From an uncultured Eubacteriales bacterium (GTDB lineage: Bacteria; Bacillota; Clostridia; Oscillospirales; UBA644): a stretch of DNA of 64,000 bases. Below, piece by piece: positions 45,483 through 59,718 of this stretch. Positions within the stretch are counted from its first letter, which is position 1. Each line of letters begins with the position of its first letter. The notes under the pieces are model-generated. The model was given only the letters and a program-made list of their open reading frames with translations, had not been told where the DNA came from and made no database searches. The stretch is from assembly GCA_902373415.1 (NCBI GenBank), contig CABKLX010000006.1, positions 54,295 to 118,294 of the forward strand. Direction: 5' to 3'. The translations under genes and the position numbers were made by a program.

Positions 45483-45516
45483 TCGGCGCGCCGCCGACCG
45501 CCGACCGTTTTATATC

Positions 45517-45635
45517 GGCGTTCATCTTATCGCGTTCACCGTGCCGGCGTTCCGTCACATCGCGTTCACCGTCTCGGCGTTCGGCGTATCGCTTTCACCG
45601 TGTCGTCGTTCCGATCTCTCATCATCGGCATAAAA
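45517..45635. repeat. Four degenerate tandem repeats of about 29-30 nt (GGCGTTC-n6-ATCGCGTTCACCGT-n3)
   Basis: Unit starts at 45517, 45546, 45576 and 45605. The array directly abuts the tRNA-Ser half-site. Confidence 0.7.
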
Positions 45636-45637
45636 GC

Positions 45638-45689
45638 CTTGAAAACCGTTTGCCCTCTGGGCACGTGGGTTCGAATCCCACACCGTCCG
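45638..45689 (+). pseudogene. 3' half of a tRNA-Ser (anticodon loop to discriminator); no 5' half present
   Basis: CTTGAAA-ACCGT-TTGCCCTCTGGGCAC-GTGGG-TTCGAAT-CCCAC-ACCGTCC-G. The upstream sequence cannot form the acceptor, D or anticodon-stem 5' strands. Confidence 0.8.
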
Positions 45690-45882
45690 ACAAACTTCGC
45701 ACAACTTTGTGTAAAAAAAAGCGCTTGGATTTAGTGATATTCACTAAAAACCATGTGCTTTTTTCTTTGTTTTAAGCCCCCAGAATTTTTGCCTTGGAGA
45801 GAACTCGAAAATTCTCTCCCGTCAAATGTGCGCTTCCGCGTTATGTTTCTTTTTGAGTTCGAATAAAATTTTTTAAAACCTA

Positions 45883-45910
45883 TTGACAAAGTAAAAAATA
45901 AGAGTATAAT
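45883..45910 (+). promoter_or_regulatory. Consensus SigA promoter for the NTase-peptide pair
   Basis: TTGACA (45883-45888), a 16-nt spacer, then TATAAT (45905-45910). Confidence 0.65.
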
Positions 45911-45969
45911 ATAACGATTTAACGGTGCACAGTTAAATGGTCGGTTAGGGGTAATAGGAGGAAAATGTT

Positions 45970-46605
45970 ATGTATGATTTTGTTTATGAATCGGAAGTAA
46001 GACCATATCGTAGTTTCTGCTCGAATACCCTTGTTGACCTTAGAGACTATTTAAAAGACCGTTACGATATCATCACACAACCTGTTCTTGTGGGAAGCGG
46101 TGCAAGAAATATGGTTATGAGGGACGGAAACGGTCCATTTGATTTGGATTACAATCTGCAGATTATCAGTATGCCAAACAAATATTGGGATGATTTGTTT
46201 GAATTAAAAAACACTGTTCTCACCGCATTGAACAAAATTGTCGGCAAAACATTGTTCTCCGACGGACACGATTCTACCGCCGTGATAACATCATTTCTCT
46301 ATTTGGAAAACACACCTAACGTAAAGTTCAAGTTTGATGTTGCAATTATAGCAAAGAATGAGCGTGGTGATTACTGCCGTTTAATACACGACAAAAGATA
46401 CTTCCGCTGTTATGTTTGGTGCGAAGTTCCATCATCCAAAGATGTGAGAAAGAAAGCTGACAAGCTGAAAAAACTCGGATATTGGTCTGATGTAAGAGAA
46501 GTATACAAGAAATTAAAAAATCATTATCTCTCTATTCAAGACAATAACCACCCTTCTTTTACGGTTTATGTAGAGGCGGTTAATCAGGTCTATGACCGGA
46601 TTTGA
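45970..46605 (+). CDS. Polymerase-beta-fold nucleotidyltransferase, 211 aa
   Basis: The hG[GS]-x(13)-DxD pattern (LVGSGARNMVMRDGNGPFDLDYNL) plus a third acidic strand (KFKFDVAIIA). RBS taggagg. Confidence 0.7.
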   Translation: MYDFVYESEVRPYRSFCSNTLVDLRDYLKDRYDIITQPVLVGSGARNMVMRDGNGPFDLDYNLQIISMPNKYWDDLFELKNTVLTALNKIVGKTLFSDGHDSTAVITSFLYLENTPNVKFKFDVAIIAKNERGDYCRLIHDKRYFRCYVWCEVPSSKDVRKKADKLKKLGYWSDVREVYKKLKNHYLSIQDNNHPSFTVYVEAVNQVYDRI

Positions 46606-46619
46606 AAGGAGGAAAAGTT

Positions 46620-46712
46620 ATGGGAAAAGGACACGGAGTTTCGGGACATACACACACTCAGGCACAGCTAAATAACTATGCCAATCAGAACAACCCCAAC
46701 AATTCTGCATAA
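46620..46712 (+). CDS. 30-aa His/Asn/Gln-rich peptide, translationally coupled to the NTase
   Basis: Encodes MGKGHGVSGHTHTQAQLNNYANQNNPNNSA. Perfect RBS aaggagg 7 nt before the ATG, 14 nt after the NTase stop. Too short for the ORF track. Confidence 0.5.
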   Translation: MGKGHGVSGHTHTQAQLNNYANQNNPNNSA

Positions 46713-46792: not shown

Positions 46793-48286
46793 TTACGCTA
46801 CAATTTTAGCGTATCTTTCACTCTCAACTACCTCAAGCATGAATGCGTAAGGATTCACAGTGCCGCTTGCCACCATCTCGAAGAGACGCGGAGTGCAGCC
46901 GGATACGAGTGCTACGCCCTGCTCGTTCTTGGTAACGGGCTGTTGTCTGTTACGACTTGCCACGTTCCAAAAAACGATGTCAGGCAAATTATAGCCGTAT
47001 GCTTCAAATTTTGCTTTCGCATTTTTGAAGTTCGTGCTACGGGCATTGCTTACACAGCGATCAAATTCCATATCGGAAATAATGATAAGCTTCGCGGGAA
47101 GCTCGCTTGCGGAAACATTGTTCTTTACGGCACTGTTCAAGATGAGATCAAATACCGCCTCAAGGTTGGTATTTGCCACCTCGTTGAAGGAAGCAACGTA
47201 GCGAAGTCTGTCCGCAAAGGTATCTCCCTTGATTTCAATGAGCTGAGGTCTTGCAGAAAATTCAATGAAATGATTCTTGTAAAGACCGGTGTTATGCTCT
47301 GCGAAATACAAACCGAGAGAAAGGGCAACTGCCGCAGGCATAGGTTTAGCATCCCAGTACATCGAACCGGAAGTGTCGATGACCGCAATTGCATTTTCCT
47401 CACTGCCGAAATCGGGCAAGGACGCCCAAGTCGCGTTCAGCAAGTTCTTTTCTTGTTCGGAGATCTGACGCATAAAACTTCGGGAGCTTGCGGTATAAGC
47501 ATTGTCATTTATGTATGGCTCAACAAGCTCATAGGGGGCGAGCGTGTCTGCGTGGAGCCTTACTTCACCGGAGGATACTTTGCCAATAAAGTCATTGTAT
47601 CTTTCGGCATCATTGCGCATAAATGCCTTGCGGTATTTATACATAGCCTTAGAGGGCTGCTTAGAGTAATCAAAGGAATAATCCTTCTCACGGAGGTTAT
47701 TCTCGATGATGCGGATATGTGCGCGAAGAGTGACGAGTGCCTTTCGGTAGTCGGCATCATTCATGCCAAAGTGTCTTGCAATCTTTTTTGCACACAGCAC
47801 AGTTTCCGAGCTGGAAGCATTGACAGAAGGCATCCACTTTGCAAGCAAAGATACTTCTCCACCATTGTTCAAAGCGGCGTTGTCCGCTTCGAACTGCACC
47901 TTTATAACGTCAAGCATATCCTTCTCGCAAGGGGTGTCCATAAGGCAAAGAAGGTCATCATAACGCCCGTATTCGGCAACATATGTAAGATTTTTGCGTA
48001 CCGTGGAGGGCTCGTTTTTTGCAAGCCAATTCAGAATCACCTTGAATACACGACGTTCTCCGAGACCGCCGCGAATATCTCGTGCGAAAAACAGGAGCTT
48101 CATGGCGATATCTCTGTTTTCTGTAAAGGCGCGGATGAAACGTGCTTCGATCTCACTGTCGCTTTCTCTGCGCAAAGCGCCGATGGTGGCGAACAGGTCG
48201 AGACAGTCGGATTCTGTTGTAATGTGGGTAGCCGCACCGTTTTCGGTTACGGCCTTGTTTGCTTCCTGTTTCAGATAATTCAACAT
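46793..48286 (-). CDS. DUF2828-type protein: helical N-terminal module (TROVE/Ro60-like?) plus C-terminal vWA domain with MIDAS motif
   Basis: N-terminus VTENGAATHITTESDCLDLFATIGALR; MIDAS DxSxS in AVIDTSGSMYW; later LIIISDMEF. RBS aaggagag before the ATG at 48286. Only about 40 nt separate the start from the nearest tRNA-like element. Confidence 0.75.
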   Translation of the reverse strand: MLNYLKQEANKAVTENGAATHITTESDCLDLFATIGALRRESDSEIEARFIRAFTENRDIAMKLLFFARDIRGGLGERRVFKVILNWLAKNEPSTVRKNLTYVAEYGRYDDLLCLMDTPCEKDMLDVIKVQFEADNAALNNGGEVSLLAKWMPSVNASSSETVLCAKKIARHFGMNDADYRKALVTLRAHIRIIENNLREKDYSFDYSKQPSKAMYKYRKAFMRNDAERYNDFIGKVSSGEVRLHADTLAPYELVEPYINDNAYTASSRSFMRQISEQEKNLLNATWASLPDFGSEENAIAVIDTSGSMYWDAKPMPAAVALSLGLYFAEHNTGLYKNHFIEFSARPQLIEIKGDTFADRLRYVASFNEVANTNLEAVFDLILNSAVKNNVSASELPAKLIIISDMEFDRCVSNARSTNFKNAKAKFEAYGYNLPDIVFWNVASRNRQQPVTKNEQGVALVSGCTPRLFEMVASGTVNPYAFMLEVVESERYAKIVA

Positions 48287-48326
48287 GAAACTCTCTCCTT
48301 TTCGTGATATGTTTTTATAATTACAA

Positions 48327-48418
48327 GGCACCGTTTGATGCGAGAGTCGAACTCGCATACGGGGATTTTCAGTCCTCTGCTTTAACCTCTAAGCTATTCA
48401 CCAATCGCTGTTGGTGCC
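48327..48418 (-). ncRNA. tRNA-like element 2 (Phe-type arms enclosed by an extra terminal helix)
   Basis: Minus strand: GGCACC-AACAGCGATTGGTGAATA-GCTT-AGAGGTTA-AAGC-A-GAGGA-CTGAAAA-TCCCC-GTAT-GCGAG-TTCGACT-CTCGC-ATCAAAC-GGTGCC. D, anticodon (GAA) and T arms fold. The acceptor stem is replaced by a GGCACC/GGTGCC closing helix. Confidence 0.6.
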
Positions 48419-48424
48419 TTTTTG

Positions 48425-48495
48425 TGCATCGAACAGGAATCGAACCTGCGTCACGAGGATTTTTAGTCCCCACTCAACCACAGAGCTACCGATGC
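48425..48495 (-). ncRNA. tRNA-like element 1 (near-canonical cloverleaf, anticodon loop CUAAAAA, no encoded CCA)
   Basis: Minus strand: GCATCGG-TA-GCTC-TGTGGTT-GAGT-GGGGA-CTAAAAA-TCCTC-GTGAC-GCAGG-TTCGATT-CCTGT-TCGATGC-A. 7-bp acceptor with G.U. One nucleotide short at the D/anticodon junction. The anticodon would be AAA. Confidence 0.6.
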
Positions 48496-48590
48496 ATATA
48501 ACAAGGCGCATTTTTTGATAAGGGTCGGATTTCTCCTTGCCTATTCATCAATAATTATTGCTGTCAGCGCCTTTAACAAGATGCGTTTAA

Positions 48591-48659
48591 CTCATACGGA
48601 GAATTTGACTCCGCGACCTCTTGCCCCGAAAGCAAGCGTTCATTAACTGAACCAATGAG
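48591..48659 (-). ncRNA. tRNA-like element 3 (degenerate cloverleaf, loop UUUCGGG)
   Basis: Minus strand: CTCAT-TG-GTTCA-GTTAA-TGAAC-G-CTTGC-TTTCGGG-GCAAG-AGGTC-GCGGAG-TCAAATT-CTCCGT-ATGAG. 5-bp acceptor-like helix and an atypical D loop without GG. Confidence 0.45.
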
Positions 48660-49277
48660 AGCAATATGGCTGTCTGCATCTTTTTTTCTATTTCACCCTC
48701 CATTAAACAAGACACTCCTAATTAACCCAAAAGGGTCAGTCTTACATAATAAATAGAAAAAACAAATTGCTGTACGTGTCTCTGGGAGAGCTGACGATAA
48801 ATGACAGTATTTTGAGAGCATATCCCAAGCAACGAGCTTCTATAAGTTTTCGCTGTTTGTCATTTTCGTCTTCAAGACGCCCTTCCGGTGCTTTACCTCC
48901 GAGAAGGGCGAACCCTTGCATCGCCGGTGAATCTCCGCTCGGAACGATAGACAAGTATCTGTGAACGAACATTTTGGCGATACTTTTTTCAAGATACGAT
49001 TACCTGATTGCTTTCGCAACCGTCAGTCAGAGTACCTCGACCCAAGATTACCTGCTTACGACAGGGACCGGAGCCTTCTCTCATATCATTTTTCAAGAAT
49101 GTTGTGGTTTTTGATTGCTGTTCGTATCTTTTATATAGTACAGTACCTGAATAGGCTGCAATTGCCGCCTCGGTGCTTATACCCGTAATCAAGGCGCGTA
49201 TACCTCCGGGCTATGAACCCGACGACCAAAGGAATCTGACTCCTGTGTCTGATTCTTTTGCTGTTTGCGCCTTTCGT
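48660..49277 (-). ncRNA. Candidate large structured ncRNA (ORF-free and hairpin-dense); family unassigned
   Basis: No credible ORF on either strand. Minus-strand hairpins carry stable tetraloops: TTGC-GAAA-GCAA (49008-49019) and AAGGG-TTCG-CCCTT (48904-48917). T-arm-like CGGG-TTCATAG-CCCG (49207-49221) is enclosed by GGCGC/GCGCC (49193-49271). Possible extended -10 tgg-TAAAAT at 49289-49284. Confidence 0.45.
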
Positions 49278-49332
49278 GACCTCATTTTACCACCTTTTTC
49301 CGATTTTTTCACGGAAAAAAAGCTGCGAACTC

Positions 49333-50244
49333 TCATTTGAGTCCGCAGTTTTTCTGTTTTTTCAGCTTTTCGATGACTAATTTTTTGAAGAATTCCGATC
49401 CGATAACCTCTACCATCGGTCCGAAGGAAAGGATTCTGATCACCATCTCGGGTTCATCATCGTGAGCATATTTAATTTTTACAAGATATGTATTTTTGTC
49501 AAGCTTCTCGGCTTGCTTCTCAAAATGGGCAAAGTGAAGCATGAACCGTTCGAGCGCGTTTCGTTCGTCACGGACCGTGACGGTCAAGGTTTCTTGCTTT
49601 TTATCCCGCTCATAATGGTCGAGTGGCTTTTGTCCTTCGTAATGAACACAGTTTTTTATTTTTGAAAGATTAACCGTAGACACCGCGTGCCATCCTGCCG
49701 TTATGAGCCTGAATTTATCATCCTTCTCAGAATATTCAAGTCTTTTTGGGTGGCATCGGATATACATAGTCTTACCGTTTCGATTGACCATTTCAAACTT
49801 GATCTGAGAGTCATTACGGATTGCCTCTAAAATGACCTTAAACTGTCTTATGTATTCTTCATCCTCAAAGGGGTCTCCGTCACTGTATTTGTCATAAACG
49901 TAATAATCCTCAGGAGTGAAAAGAGGCTCTGCATCATCGAGATTTGGAAACTCAACACCAAACAGCTTTACGCGAGGATCAAGTGAGATTGCCTTGAGCC
50001 ATTGTTTTTGAAGCGTTGTCAGCGGCATTGTTGGTTTGTGTGCAAGTGCGGTGGTCATATCGGGATGCACGAGCTGCCATTTCTCGGTTTTGAGGGAAGG
50101 CATAATGGTCAACAGGCTTTCCCCAAATGCGCGCTTTGATACGATTTTTTGTAATTCCTTTTCGGAGTGCTCACCGTCAAGGATATCCGATATGATAGCG
50201 GCAACCGTATTGTAATATGCAGAGTAAAGCTCGGAAAAGATCAT
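49333..50244 (-). CDS. WYL-domain protein (second of pair)
   Basis: WYL-like core MYIRCHPKRLEYSEKDDKFRLITAG...VNLSKI. ATGA overlap with the upstream WYL gene. Confidence 0.7.
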   Translation of the reverse strand: MIFSELYSAYYNTVAAIISDILDGEHSEKELQKIVSKRAFGESLLTIMPSLKTEKWQLVHPDMTTALAHKPTMPLTTLQKQWLKAISLDPRVKLFGVEFPNLDDAEPLFTPEDYYVYDKYSDGDPFEDEEYIRQFKVILEAIRNDSQIKFEMVNRNGKTMYIRCHPKRLEYSEKDDKFRLITAGWHAVSTVNLSKIKNCVHYEGQKPLDHYERDKKQETLTVTVRDERNALERFMLHFAHFEKQAEKLDKNTYLVKIKYAHDDEPEMVIRILSFGPMVEVIGSEFFKKLVIEKLKKQKNCGLK

Positions 50245-51500
50245 TCGCTCACCTCCTCTTTGACATTGTACATCCAATACATAGCTTCCAAATCCTTCTT
50301 AAATTGATTTTCAATGCTACGATTGGAGAATTTCATTTTTACGATACGGCAGATAAAGGTTCTGATCCAAGGGATCATCTCACTGGAATCATAAACGTCA
50401 GCAGAAAAACGATAGGTGTTTTCGTCGAGCTTTTCCACCGTTCCGACACGCTTTTCGCGTTCAAGGCGCCCCACGATATATTCCTCATTATCTTCTACCT
50501 TGACCGTGAATTCTACGTGCTCAAGGTGCTCTGCGTCCCCTTTGTTCCGTTTGACGCTGACTCCCCACATCTTGCTTTGCATTCTGTCAAGCTCAGCGCG
50601 AAGCTCATCGAAGCGAGGCGTAGGCTCTTCAAGTTTAACGTTTGAAAGATAGTCAACTCGATAGGATTGAAAGTGATTGTATTCGGGCAAATATGCGAGC
50701 AGATGCTGTCTGCCGCTCTGTACACTGATAAACACACGAAGCGGAACGATGCGGTTTCTCCTCGGCATATCTCTGCGGCGGCTCATATTCGATACCGTCA
50801 CAGCACGCTTTTCTCTCATTGCCGTGAAAAGGGAGGCAAGAACACCGCTGTCGATGGCACCGGTTATGTAGTGATGCTTGAAGGTAAAAGCATCGGTGTC
50901 GGATTCCTCTTTGTCGAGGATAAACGATCCGATCACTCCGCAGGGAGCAACCTCCGAGAAGTAATGAAGAACATCATTAAGATCAGAGATATCGGTGCTG
51001 TCTGTTCTGCGATAATATGCCTTTCGCCCTTCTTTTTCTGCCACGATAATGCCGGCTTCGCAGTATTCCTTAAGCTTTTTGCGAACAGTGGATTCGTCAA
51101 ACATCATAGGGCTTTGAAAGCCGGACAGATATTTCTCATCGATCTCTGCGAGCAATTCGGAAATAGTGCGCTTAACAGACGGATCGTGTAAAATGTCAAA
51201 AATGATGAAATGCAACGTGATGTCGCCATCGGTAAAACTCTTTGCCTTCCAAGCATTGTAAAGCGGATTGTGCCTGATCGTTCGGCTATCGATGGAAATA
51301 AAAACATTTTTACCTTCAGAAGTGCGAACAAAGCTCATATGATCACCAAGCCAGCTTTCAAGACGGCGACGCTCGTCATCATAGGAACGCGCACTCTTGC
51401 TCTGATAATCGTCGCGGCTCTTGAAACCGTAAACGTAGAAATCACGCATATATGCTCTGATTTTTTCAAAGTTTTTGATAAGCTCACTGTATGAGGACAC
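50241..51500 (-). CDS. WYL-domain transcriptional regulator (wHTH + WYL + C-terminal extension; first of pair)
   Basis: wHTH-like TISELLAEIDEKY...VRKKLKEYCEAGIIVAEKEGRKAYY. WYL core IVPLRVFISVQSGRQHLLAYLPEYNHFQSYRVDYLSNV. Confidence 0.75.
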   Translation of the reverse strand: MSSYSELIKNFEKIRAYMRDFYVYGFKSRDDYQSKSARSYDDERRRLESWLGDHMSFVRTSEGKNVFISIDSRTIRHNPLYNAWKAKSFTDGDITLHFIIFDILHDPSVKRTISELLAEIDEKYLSGFQSPMMFDESTVRKKLKEYCEAGIIVAEKEGRKAYYRRTDSTDISDLNDVLHYFSEVAPCGVIGSFILDKEESDTDAFTFKHHYITGAIDSGVLASLFTAMREKRAVTVSNMSRRRDMPRRNRIVPLRVFISVQSGRQHLLAYLPEYNHFQSYRVDYLSNVKLEEPTPRFDELRAELDRMQSKMWGVSVKRNKGDAEHLEHVEFTVKVEDNEEYIVGRLEREKRVGTVEKLDENTYRFSADVYDSSEMIPWIRTFICRIVKMKFSNRSIENQFKKDLEAMYWMYNVKEEVSE

Positions 51501-51534: not shown

Positions 51535-51909
51535 TTATGCTTTTCTGTTTTTTCTCTTGTCCTTCGTCGCCTCAAAGCTCACGTTCACAAGGAACCGCAC
51601 CACATCATCGGGCGTGTCGGGCAGAAGCACCGAGATCCAATGAAGCTTGTTCATGCGGTACGCCGGGTAGACTTCGTCAGCTTCCCCGAATGAGCCGAAC
51701 ATCTCGGTCGGCAGCTTCAGATTGACCACGTCGATCACCTCATCGCTGTCAAAACCGAACTTGCGTCGTGATACCCGCATCACGAGCTCATACCACTTGC
51801 GATTTTCACCGTGCCGGAGCACCTCCGTTTCGAAATCTTCGTCAAACGGATAGTCCGGAGATGTACCGTATGTATTGAGGCAGTATTCAAAAAGTTGTTG
51901 TTTTGTCAT
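51535..51909 (-). CDS. MmcQ/YjbR-family protein
   Basis: YGTSPDYPFDEDFETEVLRHGENRKWYELVMRV...PAYRMNKLHWISVLL is the typical family pattern. Alternative start at 51924. Confidence 0.8.
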   Translation of the reverse strand: MTKQQLFEYCLNTYGTSPDYPFDEDFETEVLRHGENRKWYELVMRVSRRKFGFDSDEVIDVVNLKLPTEMFGSFGEADEVYPAYRMNKLHWISVLLPDTPDDVVRFLVNVSFEATKDKRKNRKA

Positions 51910-51926
51910 CGCCGAGGCCCCCATAA

Positions 51927-54900
51927 TTATGCCGCCGCATTTGCATTAATCTTTTCAATTACGTTTCTGATGCCCAGCCAAACGGAAATATCAGTAAAAA
52001 CTTCGACAATGCTCCCCCTATCGCTGAAGGGCGCCTCCTGAAGCACCGACATATCCTTCATCACACCATTGCGCACGATATACTCAATGATTTGATTGAC
52101 AAAATAAATTTGGTCTGCGTCAAGATTAACATCGTTCAAATACTCTGCAAACGCCGCCTTGGCTGCTGTCATATCAAGTCCAACGATCTCACGAACAAAC
52201 TCGCCAAGCGGTTTTTCACCATATTCTGCTTCGTAGTCTTTTTTGCTACCTACTTCACTCCACAGAATGCGTTCAAGTGACTTAACGTCTTCGGCACTCA
52301 AAGGAACGTTGCTCTTTAATTTGGCAATAGCCGCTTCATCCTGATGCTGACGAATATAGAACTCTGCCTTTGCTTTATAGTTCTTAAGATCGTCGCTTTC
52401 AAGGTCGGATTCATTCCATTCAACAGAAAGTATTTCATCATCAAAATTGGTGATATATTTTACCCCTGTTCTTGGGATATACTTCATTAAATCGCGAAGA
52501 TTTTCGCGGATATGCTCAAATTCGTTGATTCCGGCGGTATCCAAATAATCTGTGTTTAGAATTTTGTTGATAAGCTCGGACTGAACCATAATTTCGGGGA
52601 TGTTTGCTACGCTTGCAATTCCGCTGACCTTTTTGTAAAGATCGGTACGGGCGCGAGAATATTTCTTGCCGGCAAGGTATGCAAGCTCAATGCCGTACAT
52701 CAAAGCATCAAAGCGAACAGCGGATGCCTCGTCCTCGTCGGGAGTAATCAGCGGAGCAAGCTCTTCTGCCATAAGTAGCGTATCCTCATAAGTGAGAGAA
52801 TTGTAATTGTCGGGATTTGCATATTGCTCCACGTAACGCAAATGCTGACGAACAGCAAAGTTCTCTTTGTTGAGTTCACGCACCTTGCGCACCATATCAT
52901 CAACCAAAGACTTACGGAAAGCAACCAGCTCGGTTGTCTGATATGCGAGATCCTGCAACTTAAAGGCAATCTGTGCCTTGAGTTTAAAGATAGCACCCTG
53001 CAAAGCTATTTGATTTGCCGTAGGACGTCCTTGATTCATGCGGAAGAACTCAAAATTTCCGCAGAAATCGAAGATATAGAACTTGTCCTTATCCTTGCCA
53101 TCCATAAGTCCGTCGCAACGGCGAGTTCCGCGACCGATCATCTGCCAGAACTTCGCCTTACTCATCACTTTTTTGAAGAAGACAAGATTCAAAACTTCGG
53201 GCACGTCAATACCTGTATCAAGCATATCGACGGAAATCGCGATTTGAGGTAATTTCTTGGGATCGGAAAACTCATCGATCGCACTCTGCGCATAAGTCAT
53301 ATAGTTATCAATGACCTTGGTGTATTCGGGCAGATTGGGATATTCTTTTCCAAATATCTCGTGAATCTTCTCGGCGTGCTCATGGTTTTTGGCAAAGATA
53401 ATTGTCTTCCCGAGCTTTTCGCCGTAGTCGATGCGCAAACCGTCGTTCATCAAGATATGAAGCACCTGACGAATGGTATCCTCGTTAAACACCCACTCGT
53501 TGATAGCAGAGGAAGCAATACTTTCGGGCAATTCACCATTCTCGTCCTCAAACGTATCCTCGTATTCCATCTTATCTTCATCTGACAGATCATCGTATAC
53601 GATGCCTTGCTCGATAAATTTCAATTTACTTTCAACGGACATATAATCAACAAGAAAGCCATCGGTAACGGCTTGTCCAAGCTCGTAACCGTATGTGGGA
53701 ACACCGTTCTCAAGCTCAAAAATCTCGTAGGTGTTCTTGTCGATCTCGTCCTTGGGCGTAGCAGTAAGACCAACCAAAGGAGCATCAAAACAATTAAAAA
53801 TATCCTTGTATTTGTTATAGATAGAGCGGTGCGCCTCGTCCACGATGACAAGATCAAAGTGGCCGACGGTAAACAGCTTTTTATCGTTATCATCCTTAAC
53901 CGTATCAATGCAATTCATCATCGTCTGATAAGTCGAGAATACACAACGAGAATCAAAGTTCTCCTTGTCCTCGCAGAGATTAGTCACCGACAGATCGGGT
54001 AACATATTCACAAAGGCTCGCTTTGCCTGCGTAACCAGCGAATTTCGGTCGGCAAGGAACAGAATATTCTTCACCCAGCCGTGATCTAAGAGCACCTTGC
54101 AAAGAGCGATGACCGTTCTCGTTTTGCCCGAACCCGTTGCCATCACGAGAAGTGCCTTGCGGCGATTCTTCTTGTCAAATGCCTCGCACACCGCCTTAAT
54201 TGCACCCTCTTGGTAGTAACGTCCGGCAATAACTTTGTCTACCATTACGTTCTTAAGGCTTGTCCGCATCGTGTGAAGATTGAATAGCTTTTCAAGGTCG
54301 CGTTTGGAGTAGATCGATGCCACCTTACGCTCGGGATAATATTTGTCATTCCAAATGCGTGTATCAAAACCGTTAGAGAGGAAAATGATGGGGCGGCGAC
54401 CGTATTTCTGCTCCAACAAGTCGGCATAGAGCTTTGCCTGCTGTCTGCCCTTGGCAACGTCAACGCAGGTGCGCTTGGCTTCCAAAACGGCAAGAGGCTT
54501 GCCGTCATCACCGAAGAGAACATAATCGGCATATCCGACCTCGCTCTTGTTGGGCATACCGTAAAGCTCTACCTCGTTCAGCCAATCCTTACCCTCAACC
54601 CAGCCGGCATCCTGTAGCATAAAGTCGATGTAGATCTTTCTCGTCTTGTACTCGGAGAGATCAAGGGGCTTGGGAACGTAGGTCTGCTGTTGCTCGGCAC
54701 GGCGAGCGGTCAGCTCATCCTTGAGAGCCTTGTTTTCCTCAATCAACTTGGCAATGTCGATCTCGTTTTCGGGGACGAAGGAAAGAGCCTCGTCTACGGT
54801 GAGCTCAAGCAAGGACTTATCAAACTGTTGCTCGGTGTATTCGGGCGCGTAGAAATATGCGATACAGTCAAGGAATACAAAGAGATTTTCAAGGCAGAGC

Positions 54901-55223
54901 TCTGCCTGCTCTTGCGTTACCTTTTTGCCGCCGTGAGCCGCATTGTTGCCGAGCTTGCGGATAAATTCCATACGACGCCAAATGTCGCCTCCGATAATAT
55001 CGCGGAACTTTTCGTCATTCATCAAGCTGACGAGGTTGTCCTGATATGGCATAACGAGATCACGGTCAACCGAATACATCCACTTGACCGCAAACTCCAT
55101 CGCCCTGCGGCAGTTCAGCACGCAGGAGTCAACGTCGATATGTAATAGCTTCTCCGCCGAGATCGCCACGTCCGCAAACGCGTCAAAATCAGGGGTGCTT
55201 TTTAGGAAATCAAAGTTGGTCAT
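51927..55223 (-). CDS. hsdR: Type I restriction enzyme R subunit
   Basis: N-terminal DUF4145-like region; Walker A MATGSGKT; DEAH box VIVDEAHRS; helicase C motifs; C-terminal EcoEI-R-like domain. Confidence 0.95.
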   Translation of the reverse strand: MTNFDFLKSTPDFDAFADVAISAEKLLHIDVDSCVLNCRRAMEFAVKWMYSVDRDLVMPYQDNLVSLMNDEKFRDIIGGDIWRRMEFIRKLGNNAAHGGKKVTQEQAELCLENLFVFLDCIAYFYAPEYTEQQFDKSLLELTVDEALSFVPENEIDIAKLIEENKALKDELTARRAEQQQTYVPKPLDLSEYKTRKIYIDFMLQDAGWVEGKDWLNEVELYGMPNKSEVGYADYVLFGDDGKPLAVLEAKRTCVDVAKGRQQAKLYADLLEQKYGRRPIIFLSNGFDTRIWNDKYYPERKVASIYSKRDLEKLFNLHTMRTSLKNVMVDKVIAGRYYQEGAIKAVCEAFDKKNRRKALLVMATGSGKTRTVIALCKVLLDHGWVKNILFLADRNSLVTQAKRAFVNMLPDLSVTNLCEDKENFDSRCVFSTYQTMMNCIDTVKDDNDKKLFTVGHFDLVIVDEAHRSIYNKYKDIFNCFDAPLVGLTATPKDEIDKNTYEIFELENGVPTYGYELGQAVTDGFLVDYMSVESKLKFIEQGIVYDDLSDEDKMEYEDTFEDENGELPESIASSAINEWVFNEDTIRQVLHILMNDGLRIDYGEKLGKTIIFAKNHEHAEKIHEIFGKEYPNLPEYTKVIDNYMTYAQSAIDEFSDPKKLPQIAISVDMLDTGIDVPEVLNLVFFKKVMSKAKFWQMIGRGTRRCDGLMDGKDKDKFYIFDFCGNFEFFRMNQGRPTANQIALQGAIFKLKAQIAFKLQDLAYQTTELVAFRKSLVDDMVRKVRELNKENFAVRQHLRYVEQYANPDNYNSLTYEDTLLMAEELAPLITPDEDEASAVRFDALMYGIELAYLAGKKYSRARTDLYKKVSGIASVANIPEIMVQSELINKILNTDYLDTAGINEFEHIRENLRDLMKYIPRTGVKYITNFDDEILSVEWNESDLESDDLKNYKAKAEFYIRQHQDEAAIAKLKSNVPLSAEDVKSLERILWSEVGSKKDYEAEYGEKPLGEFVREIVGLDMTAAKAAFAEYLNDVNLDADQIYFVNQIIEYIVRNGVMKDMSVLQEAPFSDRGSIVEVFTDISVWLGIRNVIEKINANAAA

Positions 55224-55251
55224 AATTGACTCCTTTGTAGGAATATTTATT

Positions 55252-55503
55252 TTATATTCTTATTCTTTTATAGTGTTCTTCTAAACATTTTTGAAGTTCA
55301 GATTGCGAAATTTTGCAAAAATCATCATGCGAATCCAAATACTTAACAACCCAAGGCTGAAGAACAAATTGAAAGGTAAACACACCAATACCATCACCAA
55401 CAGACGAAGCGTATGCAATGATTTTCTTTTGCAATAATGCCCCCGTAATTCCTGCTTGAGCGGATAAGGAAATTGAATGTGCAGGCATATCTATCAAAAA
55501 CAC
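55252..55503 (-). CDS. Hypothetical 83-aa ORF between hsdS and hsdR
   Basis: ORF only, with no motif. Its operon position suggests it may be real or a gene remnant. Confidence 0.3.
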   Translation of the reverse strand: MFLIDMPAHSISLSAQAGITGALLQKKIIAYASSVGDGIGVFTFQFVLQPWVVKYLDSHDDFCKISQSELQKCLEEHYKRIRI

Positions 55504-55548
55504 TGTCTATAATTTTATCAAAAGATGTGTTGCTCACTCGTCCTCACC

Positions 55549-56640
55549 TCACCCAAAATATTTTTGCATCAATGCTTTTTTTAGTGTTTCGAGCTTTTCA
55601 AGGCTCTTTTGAATTTCAAATTTTGATTTGTCGGTCTGTTCGACGAAGGATGCAAACTGTTCTTGCAGTTCTGTCGGCGGTAGAATCAGTTTGTATTCTC
55701 TCATTGCTTTAAGGCCAACATTCTTTATCGTGCTCTTAGTAGAACTATTATCAAGAAATTCTGCAAAAGCGTCGCTTTTCATAACCCCATAAACAAACGC
55801 CTTGTTGATGTTTGCCTTTAGATTGCAATAGCAAGCACTCTTGCCAAGCATGACCCGCTCTCCATTATAAAACGCCAACTTTCCCAAAGTACCATTTATA
55901 GAAATTAGAATAGCGTTTGATGAAATATCGATGAGATGCTTGGTATATGTTTCCTCTGATACCATCTTAGTTGCAGGGGTAATAACAATTTTTCCATCAA
56001 TCAGATTGTTTCCGTTAATAAAAGGATAGTCACCATTGTCATCATATTCAGGAGTTCCGTGTAACCCATCACCAATACCGTCGCAAACATCGTTCAATGG
56101 TCTGCTTAACCATCCCATAGAGTTCTTCACAGGGTCACCAAACAGTTCGATAAATCGGGATTTGACAAGCTCGTCGAGTTTGGCGAGTTGCTCGCGGCGT
56201 GCGGTGATGAGGGATTCGATAAAGTCAAGTTCATAAACAATGCACTTTTGAAGTGTTACATTATCATCAAATCGAAACTCAAAATTCCCAAGATCATTTT
56301 TCTTGATATTGGGCATGCACGCTCCCGTTCTGATCCTCATTAAACGGTCTTGCTGACTCTTAAGCGCATAATACAAATATTTCACATCACACTTAATATC
56401 AAACAAATAATAGCAATGAGCACCGCACCAAAAAGGGGAATCCATATAATTTACATATCCACAAGAATTTCCGCCCTCACTTATTGCTATAGTATTTCCT
56501 TCTGCATTAAATTCGTTCCATTTTCCAGACGGATTAATTCCGCCATTTAAATAGTCATAGATTCCGGTTTCTAATAATTCTTCTCCGTTTATCTGTTTTC
56601 CTTTTGAAAATGATGCAATTTGATTAAGCTTTACATTCAT
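55549..56640 (-). CDS. hsdS: Type I restriction enzyme S (specificity) subunit
   Basis: Two target-recognition domains separated by conserved helices (REQLAKLDELVKSRFIELFGDP and ...LEKLETLKKALMQKYFG). Confidence 0.9.
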   Translation of the reverse strand: MNVKLNQIASFSKGKQINGEELLETGIYDYLNGGINPSGKWNEFNAEGNTIAISEGGNSCGYVNYMDSPFWCGAHCYYLFDIKCDVKYLYYALKSQQDRLMRIRTGACMPNIKKNDLGNFEFRFDDNVTLQKCIVYELDFIESLITARREQLAKLDELVKSRFIELFGDPVKNSMGWLSRPLNDVCDGIGDGLHGTPEYDDNGDYPFINGNNLIDGKIVITPATKMVSEETYTKHLIDISSNAILISINGTLGKLAFYNGERVMLGKSACYCNLKANINKAFVYGVMKSDAFAEFLDNSSTKSTIKNVGLKAMREYKLILPPTELQEQFASFVEQTDKSKFEIQKSLEKLETLKKALMQKYFG

Positions 56641-56643
56641 ATA

Positions 56644-57093
56644 TTATCCCACCTTTCCATTAACAACGCCAATTTGATCTGCCACTTTAATTTCAATAGT
56701 AGGCTTTATATCAATAGAAGGCGCGATGACAATATTTTTATCATCTTTAGATGATAGAACAAAATCCAAGTTAGAAGAGTAGTCAACGGAGTTATCGTTT
56801 TTTGGAAAGATTTTCTTAGATTTTATCAACGCCTCTAATCTTTTTGCAAACTTATCTTGATCAATACCCATTATTTTTGCATTCACATATTCCTCTTTGT
56901 TCATAGCAGTTAATATGTAATTGTCTTGTTCAGCTACCGTTTTAGGATTTCTTTTTATGTGCGGTTTTGGAATATTAGGTATAACAATTTCGTTGTTTTC
57001 AATAGTAAGATTATAAATGTATCCCTTCAATATATATCTCAAAACAGTTTGTTCCTTAACTTTCCATTCCTTTGCAGCTTCTTGAATTGTCAT
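56644..57093 (-). CDS. HTH DNA-binding protein inserted between hsdM and hsdS
   Basis: The N-terminus MTIQEAAKEWKVKEQTVLRYILKGYI is MerR/excisionase-type HTH-like. 4-nt overlap with hsdM. Confidence 0.6.
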   Translation of the reverse strand: MTIQEAAKEWKVKEQTVLRYILKGYIYNLTIENNEIVIPNIPKPHIKRNPKTVAEQDNYILTAMNKEEYVNAKIMGIDQDKFAKRLEALIKSKKIFPKNDNSVDYSSNLDFVLSSKDDKNIVIAPSIDIKPTIEIKVADQIGVVNGKVG

Positions 57094-59653: not shown

Positions 59654-59689
59654 ATAGACCTCGCATTACATTATTTTTATCTATGATAT

Positions 59690-59718
59690 AGTATACCACC
59701 AATTTCGTCGTTTGTCAA
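59690..59718 (-). promoter_or_regulatory. Consensus SigA promoter for the Fic-hsdMSR operon
   Basis: On the minus strand: TTGACA (59718-59713), a 17-nt spacer, then TATACT (59695-59690). Confidence 0.65.

What the first reader, a model, noticed from the sequence alone, without database searches (positions are those of the whole stretch)
48660..49277. Roughly 0.6-kb ORF-free, hairpin-dense region: candidate large ornate ncRNA next to tRNA-like genes
This is the longest non-coding stretch in the window. Both strands give only short junk ORFs.

Read on the minus strand it is packed with helices capped by exceptionally stable loops:
- TTGC-GAAA-GCAA, a GNRA loop, at 49008-49019.
- AAGGG-TTCG-CCCTT, a UUCG loop, at 48904-48917, nested inside CCGAG...CTCGG.
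- AGGCGGCA-att-TGCAGCCT.
- CCTG-tcgtaag-CAGG.
- A 5'-terminal module in which GGCGC/GCGCC (49193-49271) encloses a T-arm-like CGGG-TTCATAG-CCCG.

On the plus strand the same loops become TTTC and CGAA, which argues for minus-strand function. An extended -10 element (tgg-TAAAAT, 49289-49284) could start the RNA just after the WYL gene.

The size, the AT-rich island context, the adjacency to tRNA-like genes and a likely rumen/gut Clostridia host all match published descriptions of the ROOL and GOLLD classes of large RNAs. Their biological role is still unknown. I cannot confirm family membership by eye. If it is neither class, it is a new large RNA.
Basis: partly seen in the sequence, partly recalled or inferred. 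Interest (0 to 1): 0.75.

Follow-up and report, generated by a model that had tools for sequence, protein, structure and literature searches.

The report
Array of Y-RNA-like modules beside Ro-like gene
The gene-free stretch is not one giant RNA but a tandem array of short structured RNAs, each closed by the same stem and carrying an ACAGCAA motif, which always accompanies a Ro60-like protein gene in gut Clostridia and many phages and appears to be an undescribed counterpart of bacterial Y RNAs.

Summary

The ROOL/GOLLD reading fails. No Rfam family other than tRNA reaches its gathering score, even when searched at E<=10.

The minus strand is instead a tandem array of 7 modules plus one decayed module and one free tRNA-Phe-like gene. 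Each module has the frame 5'-AAAG-RYRC-NN-ACAGCAA ... cargo ... GYRY-CUU-G-3'. Cargo is either a tRNA-like cloverleaf or GNRA/UUCG hairpins.

The array starts at a conserved promoter just after a pair of WYL regulator genes. It runs into a DUF2828+vWA gene whose predicted fold matches Ro60/Rsr.

In 80 related Clostridia loci the 5' frame occurs 255 times on the gene strand and never on the other. In 231 of 255 cases a complementary 3' strand follows (about 64 expected). RtcB follows the gene in 63 of 80 loci, but it has been replaced in this window.

Modules carrying ACAGCAA also flank DUF2828 genes, usually next to tRNA genes, in six phage lineages examined (a seventh, KVP40, is ambiguous).

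Best reading: Y-RNA-like partners of a Ro60 paralogue in a WYL-controlled RNA-repair cassette. Binding and processing are inferred, not shown.

The parts
49323..49348 (-). Intrinsic terminator hairpin at the end of the WYL-314 gene (CTGCGGACTC..GAGTTCGCAG followed by a T-run).
   Evidence: Terminator scan. The sequence is shown.
49310..49329 (-). Nearly invariant block TTCGCAGCTTTTTTTCCGTG. It overlaps the 3' arm of the terminator, the T-run and the -35 region. Candidate operator of the WYL regulator pair (inferred).
   Evidence: Unique in the window. Present in 65 of 80 related loci, even where the upstream sequence differs, and reused in front of other transcription units in some loci.
49284..49312 (-). 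Sigma-70-type promoter: -35 GTGAAA, 17-nt spacer, extended -10 TG-G-TAAAAT. The predicted start is about 49277, 3 nt before the first module.
   Evidence: Promoter scan. Conservation of the -10 element and of its distance to the first AAAG is shown.
49190..49273 (-). Module a. Frame AAGGCGC-AA-ACAGCAA ... GCGCCUUG. Cargo is a long hairpin plus the T-arm-like CGGG-UUCAUAG-CCCG.
   Evidence: Orthologues occur in L001, L013, L031 and L053 at 78-94% identity.
49131..49189 (-). Inter-module spacer holding the hairpin AGGCGGCA-auu-UGCAGCCU. A 194-nt deletion of two modules, relative to conspecific contigs, ends at 49189/49199.
   Evidence: Comparison with L204 and L207.
48990..49130 (-). Module b. 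Frame AAGAUACG-A-ACAGCAA ... CGUAUCUUG. Cargo contains the CCUGUC-GUAAG-CAGG hairpin and the GGUUGC-GAAA-GCAAUC GNRA hairpin.
   Evidence: Alignment A2 of 14 orthologues: 25 pairs, 11 with compensatory changes, 95.6% of cells paired against 29-37% in slid controls.
48952..48985 (-). Mini-hairpin AAGUAUC...GAUACUUG. It has the frame-like ends but no ACAGC motif, and is probably a recombination remnant.
   Evidence: Read from the sequence. No comparative support.
48873..48951 (-). Decayed module of the 'GACGC' type. The 5' frame and ACAGCAA are lost. The conserved cargo is kept (CCGAUGCA, UUCG hairpin, CUCGGAGGUAAAGCACCGG), as is the 3' frame GCGUCUUG.
   Evidence: Alignment A3 with 9 intact orthologues. 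The hairpin covaries and CUCGGAGGUAA.GC is invariant.
48799..48865 (-). Module c, a variant frame: AAAUGACA-A-ACAGCGAA ... UGUCAUUU.
   Evidence: Only one diverged orthologue was found, in L007. This is the weakest member.
48708..48782 (-). Module d. Frame GAGACAC-GU-ACAGCAA ... GUGUCUUG. Cargo is AU-rich with the hairpin GACCC-UUUU-GGGUU.
   Evidence: one mismatch to the frame pattern. No close orthologue was found by BLAST.
48577..48682 (-). Module e. Frame AAGAUGC-AG-ACAGCCA ... GCAUCUUG. Cargo is a tRNA-like cloverleaf at 48659-48591.
   Evidence: Rfam tRNA scores 25.9 bits, below the gathering score of 29. Orthologues occur in L019, L001, L005 and L017.
48502..48573 (-). Module f. Frame AAGGCGC-UG-ACAGCAA ... 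GCGCCUUG. Cargo contains the conserved GAAUAGGC.AGGAGAAAUCCGACCCUUAUC.
   Evidence: Nine orthologues.
48424..48495 (-). Free tRNA-Phe-like gene with anticodon AAA, not enclosed by a frame. Relatives carry tRNA-Phe(GAA) at this position.
   Evidence: ARAGORN; Rfam tRNA 45.9 bits; relatives.
48324..48420 (-). Module h. Frame AAGGCACC-A-ACAGCGA ... GGUGCCUUG. Cargo is a tRNA-Phe-derived cloverleaf (D, anticodon and T arms; the acceptor stem is reduced to about 3 bp). It is always the last module before the gene.
   Evidence: Rfam tRNA 40.9 bits at 48335-48403. Alignment A4 of 22 orthologues: 96.3% of cells paired against 35-48% in slid controls, and 12 of 22 pairs show compensatory changes.
46793..48289 (-). 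DUF2828 + DUF7788 (vWA, with a DxSxS MIDAS motif) protein of 498 aa. It is a Ro60-like ring protein and the proposed RNA partner. The RBS AAGGAGAG lies about 8 nt upstream, and no terminator separates the array from the gene.
   Evidence: Pfam. PHROG 850 'RNA-binding protein', E 4e-132. Foldseek top 10 hits are all Ro60/Rsr/TROVE. Invariant D305, T306, S307 and S309. Terminator scan.
49333..51500 (-). Two tandem WYL-domain regulator genes: 419 aa at 50241-51500 and 314 aa at 49333-50277. They form the conserved upstream part of the cassette.
   Evidence: Pfam WYL for the 419-aa protein. PADLOC WYL for both. Present upstream in 58-61 of 80 loci.

Best explanation
Window 48324-49273 (minus strand) encodes a polycistronic array of small structured RNAs that work like bacterial Y RNAs.

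Expression. The array is transcribed from a conserved sigma-70-type promoter. That promoter overlaps a nearly invariant block, which is probably the operator of the two WYL regulators encoded just upstream. The transcript reads through into the DUF2828/vWA gene. In most relatives it continues into rtcB.

Module anatomy. Each module is closed by an 8-bp helix (AAGRYRCN / NGYRYCUU, followed by G). Just inside the 5' strand it presents the single-stranded motif ACAGCAA, opposite an A-rich 3' strand. The interior is a variable cargo: a tRNA-Phe-derived cloverleaf, a T-arm, or GNRA/UUCG-capped hairpins.

Proposed mechanism (inferred). The precursor is cut into single modules; RNase P and RNase Z acting at the embedded tRNA would contribute. 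The closing helix plus ACAGCAA is the docking site for the Ro60-like DUF2828 ring protein. This mirrors the 5'-strand GNCGAA motif of Y RNAs, which docks Rsr. The cargo would then tether, gate or decoy other factors (tRNA-binding enzymes, nucleases, RtcB) during an RNA-damage response.

Shown here: the array architecture, its covariation, its strand, its strict linkage to DUF2828 genes across Clostridia and phages, and the Ro60-like fold of the protein.

Inferred only: transcription, processing, protein binding and physiological role.
For: Architecture
- Seven framed modules lie in the window. There are five exact and one 1-mismatch hits to AAGRYRCNNACAGC, all on the minus strand inside the IGR; 1.15 hits are expected for the whole window.

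Family-wide, non-circular tests in 80 loci
- The sequence-only anchor AAG-N6-ACAGCRA occurs 255 times on the gene strand and 0 times on the other.
- 231 of 255 anchors are followed within 240 nt by the exact complement of the 4 variable bases plus CTT. Under permutation the figure is 64 +/- 6, with a maximum of 80.
- Stem pairs 4-6 switch between G-C and A-U with at least 97% pairing.
- Single non-Watson-Crick pairs are G.U-type 22 times and A.C-type 8 times, which points to a sense-strand RNA.

Cargo structures covary.

Protein
- Pfam finds DUF2828 + DUF7788. Foldseek's top 10 PDB hits are all Ro60/Rsr/TROVE, probability 1.0, over roughly 500-575 aligned columns. The protein matches PHROG 850 'RNA-binding protein'.

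Context
- The WYL pair lies upstream in 58-61 of 80 loci. RtcB lies immediately downstream in 63 of 80. Conspecific contigs have the order HsdR-YjbR-WYL-WYL-array-DUF2828-RtcB. This parallels the Salmonella rsr-yrlBA-rtcBA operon (PMC7790460).

Linkage beyond Clostridia
- ACAGCAA modules with lineage-specific closing stems sit next to DUF2828 on the same strand in phages of Bacillus, E. coli (Felixounavirus), Mycobacterium (cluster L), Listeria, Campylobacter and Staphylococcus.
- At least 20 of the 120 IMG/VR stretches recovered with a single frame pattern carry a DUF2828 homologue (25-47% identity to the window protein), usually right next to the modules on the same strand. By comparison, DUF2828 occurs in 1.4% of whole phage genomes.

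The modules lie downstream of the gene in the Staphylococcus and Mycobacterium phages. This argues against a purely 5'-UTR role.
Against: - No expression, end-mapping or binding data could be consulted, so the RNA-protein partnership rests on genomic linkage and analogy.
- The structure model is mediocre (pLDDT 67; TM 0.31-0.40 to Ro60), and neither Pfam TROVE nor PDB sequence searches hit the protein.
- The Y-RNA motif GNCGAAN0-1G is absent, and the Rfam YrlA model scores only 23 bits, out of register. Homology to Y RNAs is therefore not shown.
- In large IMG/VR phages the modules are scattered through 20-tRNA arrays with no DUF2828 in the roughly 10 kb fetched. They may have a tRNA-array function that does not depend on DUF2828.
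- This window's copy lacks rtcB, has one decayed module and has lost two others. This particular locus may be eroding.
Confidence: 0.62

Rival explanations
1. The modules are accessory elements of tRNA operons, for example processing or spacer structures or tRNA-derived pseudogenes. They would be matured and used by the tRNA machinery, and their adjacency to DUF2828 would only reflect that this gene also travels with tRNA arrays.
For: - Modules are interleaved with 16-24 genuine tRNAs in large IMG/VR phages with no DUF2828 in the fetched piece.
- In the Mogibacterium/Anaerovoracaceae-type loci L066, L070, L073 and L080 the modules end a housekeeping tRNA operon.
- About 20% of cargos carry a T-loop-like motif.
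- The window array contains a free tRNA-Phe-like gene.
Against: - The frame (closing helix plus ACAGCAA) is not a tRNA feature, and most cargos are not tRNA-like.
- In the Staphylococcus, Mycobacterium, Campylobacter and Listeria phages the modules hug the DUF2828 gene rather than the bulk of the tRNAs.
- In 16 Clostridia loci scanned with the Rfam tRNA model, the array contains at most one or two tRNA matches; about 60 of the 80 loci carry the WYL-array-DUF2828 cassette.
- Whole phage genomes were not scanned, so the absence of DUF2828 from those phages is not established.
Confidence: 0.17
2. The array is mainly a cis-acting leader. It would be a long structured 5' UTR whose repeated sites titrate the DUF2828 protein or the WYL regulators, so as to autoregulate expression of DUF2828 and rtcB. 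It would not be a source of trans-acting RNAs.
For: - The array lies between the promoter and the gene with no terminator between them.
- The last module ends about 35 nt before the start codon in nearly all Clostridia loci.
Against: - Modules lie downstream of the gene in the Staphylococcus and Mycobacterium phages, and within tRNA arrays elsewhere.
- The number of modules varies from 1 to 11 and their cargos are individually conserved. That is hard to reconcile with a simple leader.
Confidence: 0.12
3. It is a single large ornate RNA of the ROOL/GOLLD kind, or a new one of that size class, folding as one unit.
For: - The 801-nt minus-strand fold is more stable than shuffled sequence (z = -3.4).
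- ROOL and GOLLD are known (from general knowledge of those families) to lie near tRNAs in phage-related DNA.
Against: - There is no Rfam hit at E<=10, and none in 16 relatives.
- The plus strand folds even better than shuffles (z = -4.6).
- Conserved pairings are all local to the modules.
- Modules are gained and lost individually between strains and occur in any number and order.
Confidence: 0.03
4. It is not RNA at all. It would be DNA-level repeats (REP-like palindromes or regulator-binding sites) or a decayed protein-coding gene.
For: - The closing stems are inverted repeats in DNA.
- A strongly conserved DNA block sits at the promoter.
Against: - The motif is strictly strand-specific, 255 to 0.
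- The arms are 50-190 nt apart and the interiors are structured and covarying.
- G.U-type pairs outnumber A.C-type pairs.
- No ORF is conserved, and tRNA-like cloverleaves are embedded.
Confidence: 0.03

Closest known systems
Bacterial Y RNAs (YrlA/YrlB, Rfam RF02553) with Rsr/Ro60 in the rsr-yrlBA-rtcBA RNA-repair operon (Chen et al. 2014, PMC4201824; Hughes et al. 2020, PMC7790460)
   Same: - Small RNAs closed by a 5'/3' stem, with a conserved motif on the 5' strand near the stem.
- A variable effector domain that is often a tRNA mimic.
- Encoded on the same strand next to a Ro60-fold TROVE-like + vWA protein, and usually next to rtcB.
- Several RNAs per locus, under a ligand-sensing regulator.
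   Different: - The protein belongs to Pfam DUF2828/DUF7788, not TROVE.
- The RNA motif is ACAGCAA, not GNCGAAN0-1G.
- The YrlA covariance model does not recognise the modules (23 bits against a gathering score of 69, out of register).
- There are up to 11 modules per locus, with many non-tRNA cargos.
- The regulators are a WYL pair rather than the CARF/sigma-54 activator RtcR.
Phage Ro60 with Y-RNA-like Yrl1/Yrl2 (Thermus phage phiLo; PMC12135203; PDB 9KOP and 9L5Y)
   Same: - A phage-encoded Ro60-fold protein with small stem-bulge-stem RNAs encoded just upstream.
- 9KOP and 9L5Y are among the best structural matches to the window protein.
   Different: - Those RNAs carry the CGAA motif and the protein is a recognisable Ro60 homologue.
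- No ACAGCAA frame or tRNA-array embedding is described for them.
ROOL (RF03087) and GOLLD (RF01998) large RNAs
   Same: - Non-coding and structured.
- Found in Firmicutes and phage DNA near tRNA genes (from general knowledge of the families).
- No established function.
   Different: - Those are single RNAs of about 500-800 nt with long-range architecture.
- Here the unit is 50-150 nt and repeated.
- No covariance-model match was found.
PafBC-type paired WYL regulators of damage responses
   Same: Two adjacent WYL-domain genes precede the regulated operon, and a strongly conserved promoter-proximal DNA block is present.
   Different: - Only a marginal sequence match to PafC (E = 0.63).
- The ligand and the DNA site are untested.
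- The regulated genes concern RNA metabolism, not DNA repair.

Membership tests
ROOL RNA (Rfam RF03087) | Match to the family covariance model at or above its gathering score. | tested here: not met
   cmscan of the whole window at gathering scores, and of 48200-49500 at E<=10 with permissive filters, gave no ROOL match. None was found in 16 related loci either.
GOLLD RNA (Rfam RF01998) | Match to the family covariance model at or above its gathering score. | tested here: not met
   Same searches: no match.
OLE / HEARO / raiA large RNAs (Rfam) | Match to the respective covariance models. | tested here: not met
   All 4227 Rfam 15 families were scanned. Only tRNA reached its gathering score.
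YrlA / bacterial Y RNA (RF02553) | Covariance-model score at or above the gathering score of 69 bits. | tested here: not met
   The best match scores 23.1 bits at 48356-48473. It spans the free tRNA and half of module h, so it is out of register with any module. No YrlA hit at E<=0.01 was found near the DUF2828 genes of three phages.
YrlA / bacterial Y RNA (RF02553) | GNCGAAN0-1G motif near the 5' end, the proposed Rsr contact (PMC4201824). | tested here: not met
   Absent from the window IGR. Present anywhere in only 13 of 250 modules, and within the first 30 nt in only 2. ACAGCAA occupies the analogous position.
YrlA / bacterial Y RNA (RF02553) | A stem formed by the 5' and 3' ends that encloses an effector domain, which in YrlA mimics tRNA. 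| tested here: met
   An 8-bp closing helix is present in all modules. The cargo is a tRNA-like cloverleaf in modules e and h. A permuted T-arm/D-arm cargo occurs in a mycobacteriophage module. Many other cargos are not tRNA-like.
YrlA / bacterial Y RNA (RF02553) | Encoded within 4 kb of a Ro60 orthologue, on the same strand. | tested here: inconclusive
   The modules are always on the same strand and usually within 1.5 kb. However, the protein is a DUF2828-type Ro60-fold paralogue, not a TROVE-annotated Rsr.
YrlA / bacterial Y RNA (RF02553) | Physical association with the Ro60 protein. | not testable with these tools
   Needs RIP, EMSA or structural work.
Ro60 / Rsr (Pfam TROVE PF05731 + vWA) | Sequence match to the TROVE domain. 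| tested here: not met
   Pfam lists only DUF2828 and DUF7788 at E<=0.01. A profile search of PDB sequences finds no Ro60.
Ro60 / Rsr (Pfam TROVE PF05731 + vWA) | HEAT-repeat ring plus a C-terminal vWA domain with a MIDAS motif (fold level). | tested here: met
   The Foldseek top 10 are all Ro60/Rsr/phage Ro60 (E 9e-6 to 1e-4, probability 1.0, about 500-575 aligned columns), but TM is only 0.31-0.40 because the model has pLDDT 67. The DxSxS motif is invariant.
rsr-Y RNA-rtcB RNA-repair operon | An RtcB ligase gene in the same operon. | tested here: not met
   RtcB (PF01139, E 2e-57) directly follows DUF2828 in 63 of 80 relatives and in conspecific contigs. In this window it is absent, replaced by about 840 nt carrying orf211.
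rsr-Y RNA-rtcB RNA-repair operon | The RtcR (CARF / sigma-54) activator. | tested here: not met
   The upstream regulators are two WYL-domain proteins, and the promoter is of the sigma-70 type.

The most novel reading that the evidence does not exclude
ACAGCAA-frame RNAs are a previously unrecognised and very widespread class of modular non-coding RNAs. On this reading they are the dedicated partners of the DUF2828 'Ro-like' protein family, which has about 6800 clusters at 50% identity and occurs in 1.4% of sequenced phages, including Felix O1-like, P100-like and mycobacteriophage cluster L phages (KVP40-type phages carry the gene, but their modules are ambiguous). Each module would present a different cargo (tRNA mimic or hairpin) on a common protein-docking frame. 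Phages embed the modules in their tRNA arrays, and gut Clostridia place them under WYL control together with RtcB. That would make an RNA-based adaptor or decoy system acting in the conflict over tRNA cleavage and repair.
Probability: 0.45. Interest if true: 0.85.

Novelty: new variant of a known kind. Interest (0 to 1): 0.7.

Why it matters
Ro60-Y RNA particles are conserved from bacteria to humans, yet their bacterial roles remain unclear. DUF2828 proteins are labelled 'Ro-like' or 'RNA-binding' in hundreds of phage genomes, with no known RNA partner.

A simple, searchable RNA signature (closing helix plus ACAGCAA) that tracks this protein family across Firmicutes, Actinobacteria and Proteobacteria phages, and across gut Clostridia, would do three things:
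- It gives that family a candidate ligand.
- It annotates many unexplained gaps in phage tRNA arrays.
- It offers tractable systems (Felix O1, Listeria P100-type and Staphylococcus phages) in which to test what Ro-like RNPs and tRNA mimics do during infection and RNA damage.

It also reveals a WYL-controlled analogue of the RtcR-controlled RNA-repair operon.

For this window specifically, it replaces a speculative 'new giant RNA' with a concrete, dissected architecture.

Tried and rejected
- Rfam at gathering and at permissive thresholds, on the window and on 19 other loci: only tRNA matches, plus a sub-threshold, out-of-register YrlA hit. ROOL, GOLLD, OLE, HEARO and raiA are rejected.
- BLASTN of the IGR against the phage and plasmid collections: only tRNA-Phe-like segments matched, so this was uninformative.
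- PDB sequence search with the protein profile: no Ro60 hit. The relationship is visible only at the fold level.
- Literature searches for DUF2828, YrlA, Ro60+WYL, RtcB+WYL+TROVE and Ro-like+phage+tRNA: no description of these RNAs was found. Burroughs & Aravind 2016 and two Wolin-lab reviews are not held in the library and could not be checked.
- MFE z-scores as a strand test: both strands are 'stable', so this was rejected as evidence.
- Enrichment of Shine-Dalgarno-like GGAGG in cargos: 19 observed against 12.7 +/- 3.6 expected, which is too weak to build on.
- The WYL pair as PafBC homologues: only E = 0.63 to PafC, so this is kept as an analogy only.
- orf211 against PDB and Pfam: no match.
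- A 14-base frame pattern scan of IMG/VR returns many chance hits. It was usable only after filtering for complete modules.
- Proteins flanking phage tRNA arrays that contain modules: terminase and radical-SAM proteins, with no DUF2828 nearby. Genome-level co-occurrence in those phages therefore remains open.
- A generic covariance model of the frame was not built, because the variable 30-170-nt cargo makes such a model insensitive. Pattern-plus-permutation tests were used instead.
Full report
**1. The observation**

The finding covers 48660-49277. The real gene-free interval is wider. It runs from the stop of a 314-aa WYL-like gene (49333) to the start of a 498-aa gene (48289), both on the minus strand. 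By a mechanical ORF map, 48359-49332 is the longest stretch of the window with no ORF of >=80 or >=100 aa. MFE z-scores are negative on both strands (-3.4 minus, -4.6 plus), so they say nothing about strand.

**2. Not a known large RNA**

cmscan against all 4227 Rfam 15 families finds only tRNA at gathering thresholds. The minus-strand hits are at 48425-48495 (45.9 bits) and 48335-48403 (40.9 bits). At E<=10 the scan adds a sub-threshold tRNA-like match at 48591-48659 (25.9 bits) and an out-of-register 23-bit YrlA match. Nothing matches ROOL, GOLLD, OLE, HEARO or raiA. Sixteen related loci (124 kb) likewise give only tRNA.

**3. What the sequence is**

Read on the minus strand, the interval is a tandem array. 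Seven units share one frame:
- a 5' strand (A)AAG-RYRC-N
- two further bases, then ACAGC(A/G)A
- a variable interior
- an A-rich run
- the complementary strand N-GYRY-CUU, followed by G

The units are:
- a: 49273-49190
- b: 49130-48990
- c: 48865-48799 (variant frame)
- d: 48782-48708
- e: 48682-48577
- f: 48573-48502
- h: 48420-48324

Between f and h lies a free tRNA-Phe-like gene with anticodon AAA (48495-48424). Between b and c lies a decayed unit (48951-48873). It has lost its 5' frame but keeps the conserved cargo, including the UUCG hairpin, and the 3' frame.

The pattern AAGRYRCNNACAGC hits the window five times exactly and once with one mismatch, all on the minus strand inside this interval. 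The expectation for the whole 64 kb at <=1 mismatch is 1.15.

**4. Comparative evidence for the frame**

The downstream gene belongs to Pfam DUF2828 + DUF7788. Eighty loci encoding relatives (66-87% identity in the best tblastn segment) were fetched from GTDB genomes. Almost all are gut or rumen Clostridia MAGs.

- A sequence-only anchor (AAG-N6-ACAGCRA) occurs 255 times on the gene strand and never on the opposite strand.
- All occurrences of the stricter pattern AAGRYRCNNACAGCRA lie upstream of the gene.
- In 231 of 255 cases the exact complement of the four variable stem bases plus CTT follows within 240 nt. When the stems are permuted among anchors this happens 64 +/- 6 times, with a maximum of 80.
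- Over 250 unique modules, stem positions 4-6 alternate G-C/A-U, C-G/U-A and A-U/G-C with at least 97% pairing, and position 8 uses all four Watson-Crick types.
- Unselected positions are also conserved: A before AAG (0.92), AA after ACAGC (0.91 each), and G after CUU (0.98).
- Single non-Watson-Crick pairs are G.U-type 22 times and A.C-type 8 times, as expected for an RNA of the gene's sense.
- Loci carry 1 to 11 modules.

**5. Comparative evidence for the cargo**

Stem sequence and cargo type go together.

- The b type (GAUAC stem, about 140-150 nt) aligns across 14 loci. It has 25 consensus pairs, 11 of them with compensatory changes; 95.6% of cells are paired against 29-37% when the partners are slid.
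- The h type, always the last unit before the gene, aligns across 22 loci as closing stem + D arm + anticodon arm + T arm. 96.3% of cells are paired against 35-48% slid, and 12 of 22 pairs show compensatory changes. The acceptor stem is reduced to about 3 bp.
- About a fifth of all cargos carry a T-loop-like motif.

The 'tRNA-like genes next door' are therefore cargo of the same kind of unit.

**6. Modularity in action**

Conspecific metagenome contigs (protein 98% identical, DNA 98-99%) have two additional modules. These sit exactly between module a and the spacer that follows it in the window. The deletion junction lies in the shared ...GCGCCUUG 3' frame. Modules are thus gained and lost as units, probably by recombination between frames.

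**7. Expression signals**

The WYL-314 gene ends in an intrinsic terminator (49348-49323). A sigma-70-type promoter follows: -35 GTGAAA, 17 nt, TG-extended -10 TAAAAT ending at 49284. The first module begins about 11 nt after the -10 element. The block TTCGCARCTTTTTTTCCGTGA, together with the -10 element and its spacing to the first AAAG, is conserved in 65 of 80 loci, even where the upstream gene differs. In some loci it is reused in front of other transcription units. It is unique in this window. I read it as promoter plus operator; this is an inference. No terminator separates the array from the DUF2828 gene.

**8. The protein and the cassette**

- The DUF2828 protein matches PHROG 850, 'RNA-binding protein' (E 4e-132).
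- Its AlphaFold model is mediocre (pLDDT 67). Even so, its ten best PDB matches are all Ro60, Rsr or phage Ro60 over nearly the full length (probability 1.0, E 9e-6 to 1e-4).
- The vWA MIDAS DxSxS motif is invariant.
- Sequence-level searches do not connect it to TROVE.
- Upstream, the pair WYL-419 + WYL-314 is present in 58-61 of 80 loci.
- Downstream, RtcB (PF01139, E 2e-57) follows directly in most loci and is present in 63 of 80.

The cassette 'WYL-WYL | promoter | RNA array | Ro60-like | RtcB' parallels the Salmonella rsr-yrlBA-rtcBA operon. In that operon Y RNAs with tRNA-like domains are co-transcribed with Rsr and RtcB under a ligand-sensing regulator (PMC7790460, PMC4201824).

In this window rtcB is missing. 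Compared with conspecific contigs, about 1.2 kb containing rtcB has been replaced by about 840 nt (46710-45869). That segment carries an unrelated 211-aa ORF on the other strand.

**9. Beyond Clostridia**

tblastn finds DUF2828 in 710 of 50,697 phage records, annotated variously as 'Ro-like RNA binding protein', 'RNA-binding protein' and 'vWFA protein'. Modules with ACAGCAA and a lineage-specific closing helix lie beside the gene on the same strand in six of the seven lineages inspected:

| Phage | Position and frame |
|---|---|
| Bacillus phage Chewbecca | 6 modules (UAGACAC..GUGUCUAG), four of them between the 20-tRNA array and the gene, two further upstream or within the array |
| E. coli Felixounavirus | AGACCAA-NU-ACAGCAA..UUGGUCUGG, within the tRNA array that follows the gene |
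| Mycobacterium phage Loadrie | three modules right after the 'Ro-like' gene; one has a permuted T-arm/D-arm cargo like YrlA |
| Listeria LP-039 | three modules upstream; an RtcB-type ligase 1.3 kb downstream |
| Campylobacter F360 | two modules upstream |
| Staphylococcus CF9 | three modules downstream |
| Vibrio KVP40 | ambiguous |

A scan of IMG/VR with one frame variant returned 120 stretches. More than 50 contain complete modules, and at least 20 carry a DUF2828 homologue (25-47% identity), mostly immediately adjacent on the same strand. In several large phages the modules are instead scattered through arrays of 16-24 tRNAs, with no DUF2828 in the piece fetched. The protein family is large: 6827 clusters at 50% identity at E<=1e-3.

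**10. Relation to Y RNAs**

What it works like: a stem-closed small RNA with a conserved 5'-strand motif and a variable domain that is often tRNA-like, encoded with a Ro60-fold protein and RtcB. That is the Y-RNA logic.

Membership is a separate question, and the answer is no:
- The YrlA covariance model fails (23 bits against 69).
- The GNCGAAN0-1G motif that marks Y RNAs is absent from the window, and occurs in only 13 of 250 modules.
- The protein is not a TROVE-family member by sequence.

I therefore treat this as a functional analogue, possibly a very distant homologue, and not as a member of the YrlA family.

**11. Mechanism, and what is shown**

Shown:
- the array architecture
- strand specificity
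- helix and cargo covariation
- promoter conservation
- the Ro60-like fold
- the linkage to DUF2828, WYL and RtcB

Inferred:
- that the array is transcribed and cut into units; RNase P/Z at the embedded tRNA would help, and M. smegmatis YrlA is an RNase P substrate according to PMC4201824
- that helix + ACAGCAA docks the DUF2828 ring
- that the cargos tether or decoy tRNA-directed factors during RNA damage or phage conflict

Hughes et al. (PMC7790460) proposed that YrlA's tRNA-like domain could competitively inhibit an anticodon nuclease. The same idea would fit a set of tRNA mimics with varied anticodon loops, but it is speculation here.

**12. Rivals**

- A tRNA-operon accessory role independent of DUF2828 is the main rival. 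It needs a genome-level co-occurrence test that I could not run.
- A purely cis-acting leader is disfavoured, because the modules lie downstream of the gene in some phages.
- A single large RNA, DNA repeats and a decayed gene are all contradicted by the data above.

**13. Novelty**

Rfam 15 has no model that recognises these modules. Nine full-text searches found no description of an RNA partner for DUF2828 proteins. Some key papers could not be read, so prior description cannot be excluded. I rate it a new variant of a known kind (Ro60/Y-RNA-type RNPs in RNA-repair operons) and of considerable interest. The interest lies mainly in the breadth of the signature across well-studied phages.

Noticed in passing
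window 45869-46710 (compare L204 8577-9767): In conspecific contigs rtcB (402 aa) follows the DUF2828 gene. In this window that segment is replaced by about 840 nt of AT-rich DNA. The replacement carries orf211 (45970-46605, + strand) with its own strong promoter (TTGACA..17..TATAAT at about 45885-45913). orf211 has a Pol-beta nucleotidyltransferase-like GSG..(12)..DLD motif but no Pfam, PHROG, PADLOC or PDB match.
   Followed up: partly
window 49189/49199 junction (compare L204 5894-6088): There is a 194-nt deletion of two complete modules relative to 98-99% identical conspecific contigs. Its junction lies in the repeated ...GCGCCUUG frame, which suggests module loss by recombination between frames.
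   Followed up: yes
window 49310-49329 (-); L006, L007, L024, L027, L028, L030 downstream of the DUF2828 gene: The nearly invariant block TTCGCARCTTTTTTTCCGTGA plus an extended -10 element also occurs about 1.5 kb downstream of the DUF2828 start in several loci. In L024 and L028 it precedes a protein-coding gene (RBS followed by ATG). This suggests a small regulon sharing one operator.
   Followed up: partly
window about 45655-45692 (+): An isolated tRNA 3' fragment (GTGGGTTCGAATCCCACACCGTCCGACA: a T arm plus the 3' acceptor strand) with no 5' half. It lies at the edge of the low-GC segment and may be an att-site remnant. It differs from the intact tRNA-Ser(TGA) at 60006-60094.
   Followed up: no
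window 45500-45620 (+): Imperfect tandem repeats of a unit of about 33 nt (..atcgcgttcaccgtgccggcgttccgtcac..) lie just after the GNAT acetyltransferase gene.
   Followed up: no
window 51535-61458: The low-GC island beside the cassette holds a defence cluster: a YjbR-like gene, type I restriction-modification (HsdR 51927-55223, HsdS 55549-56640, HsdM 57090-58589), a Fic-domain protein (58586-59653), tRNA-Ser(TGA) at 60006-60094, and a PD-(D/E)xK-like PADLOC PDC-S26 candidate (60040-61458). HsdR-YjbR-WYL-WYL synteny is conserved in the conspecific contig L204.
   Followed up: partly
window 48424-48495 (-); L010, L011, L012, L017, L056: The unframed tRNA of the window array has an AAA anticodon, which is unusual for bacterial tRNA-Phe. 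In most relatives the unframed tRNA at this position is tRNA-Phe(GAA). ARAGORN calls AAA anticodons in several other loci, there mostly for the tRNA-like cargo of the last module. Whether any of these is a functional tRNA or another mimic is open.
   Followed up: partly
L066, L070, L073, L080 (Mogibacterium / Anaerovoracaceae MAGs): Here the DUF2828 gene and a few modules sit at the end of a housekeeping operon of 12-15 tRNAs, with no WYL pair nearby. In L066 and L070 rtcB lies upstream of the tRNA operon. This is a different wiring of the same parts.
   Followed up: partly
L116 and L119 (IMG/VR contigs of 139-158 kb): Phage tRNA arrays that contain ACAGCAA-frame modules also contain CUA-anticodon tRNAs, which ARAGORN calls tRNA-Pyl. 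These could be amber suppressors and would hint at alternatively coded phages.
   Followed up: no
window 39647-41362 (-) and surroundings: A 571-aa ORF and its neighbours upstream of the island look phage-like by composition and layout (possibly a portal or other structural region). They were not examined.
   Followed up: no
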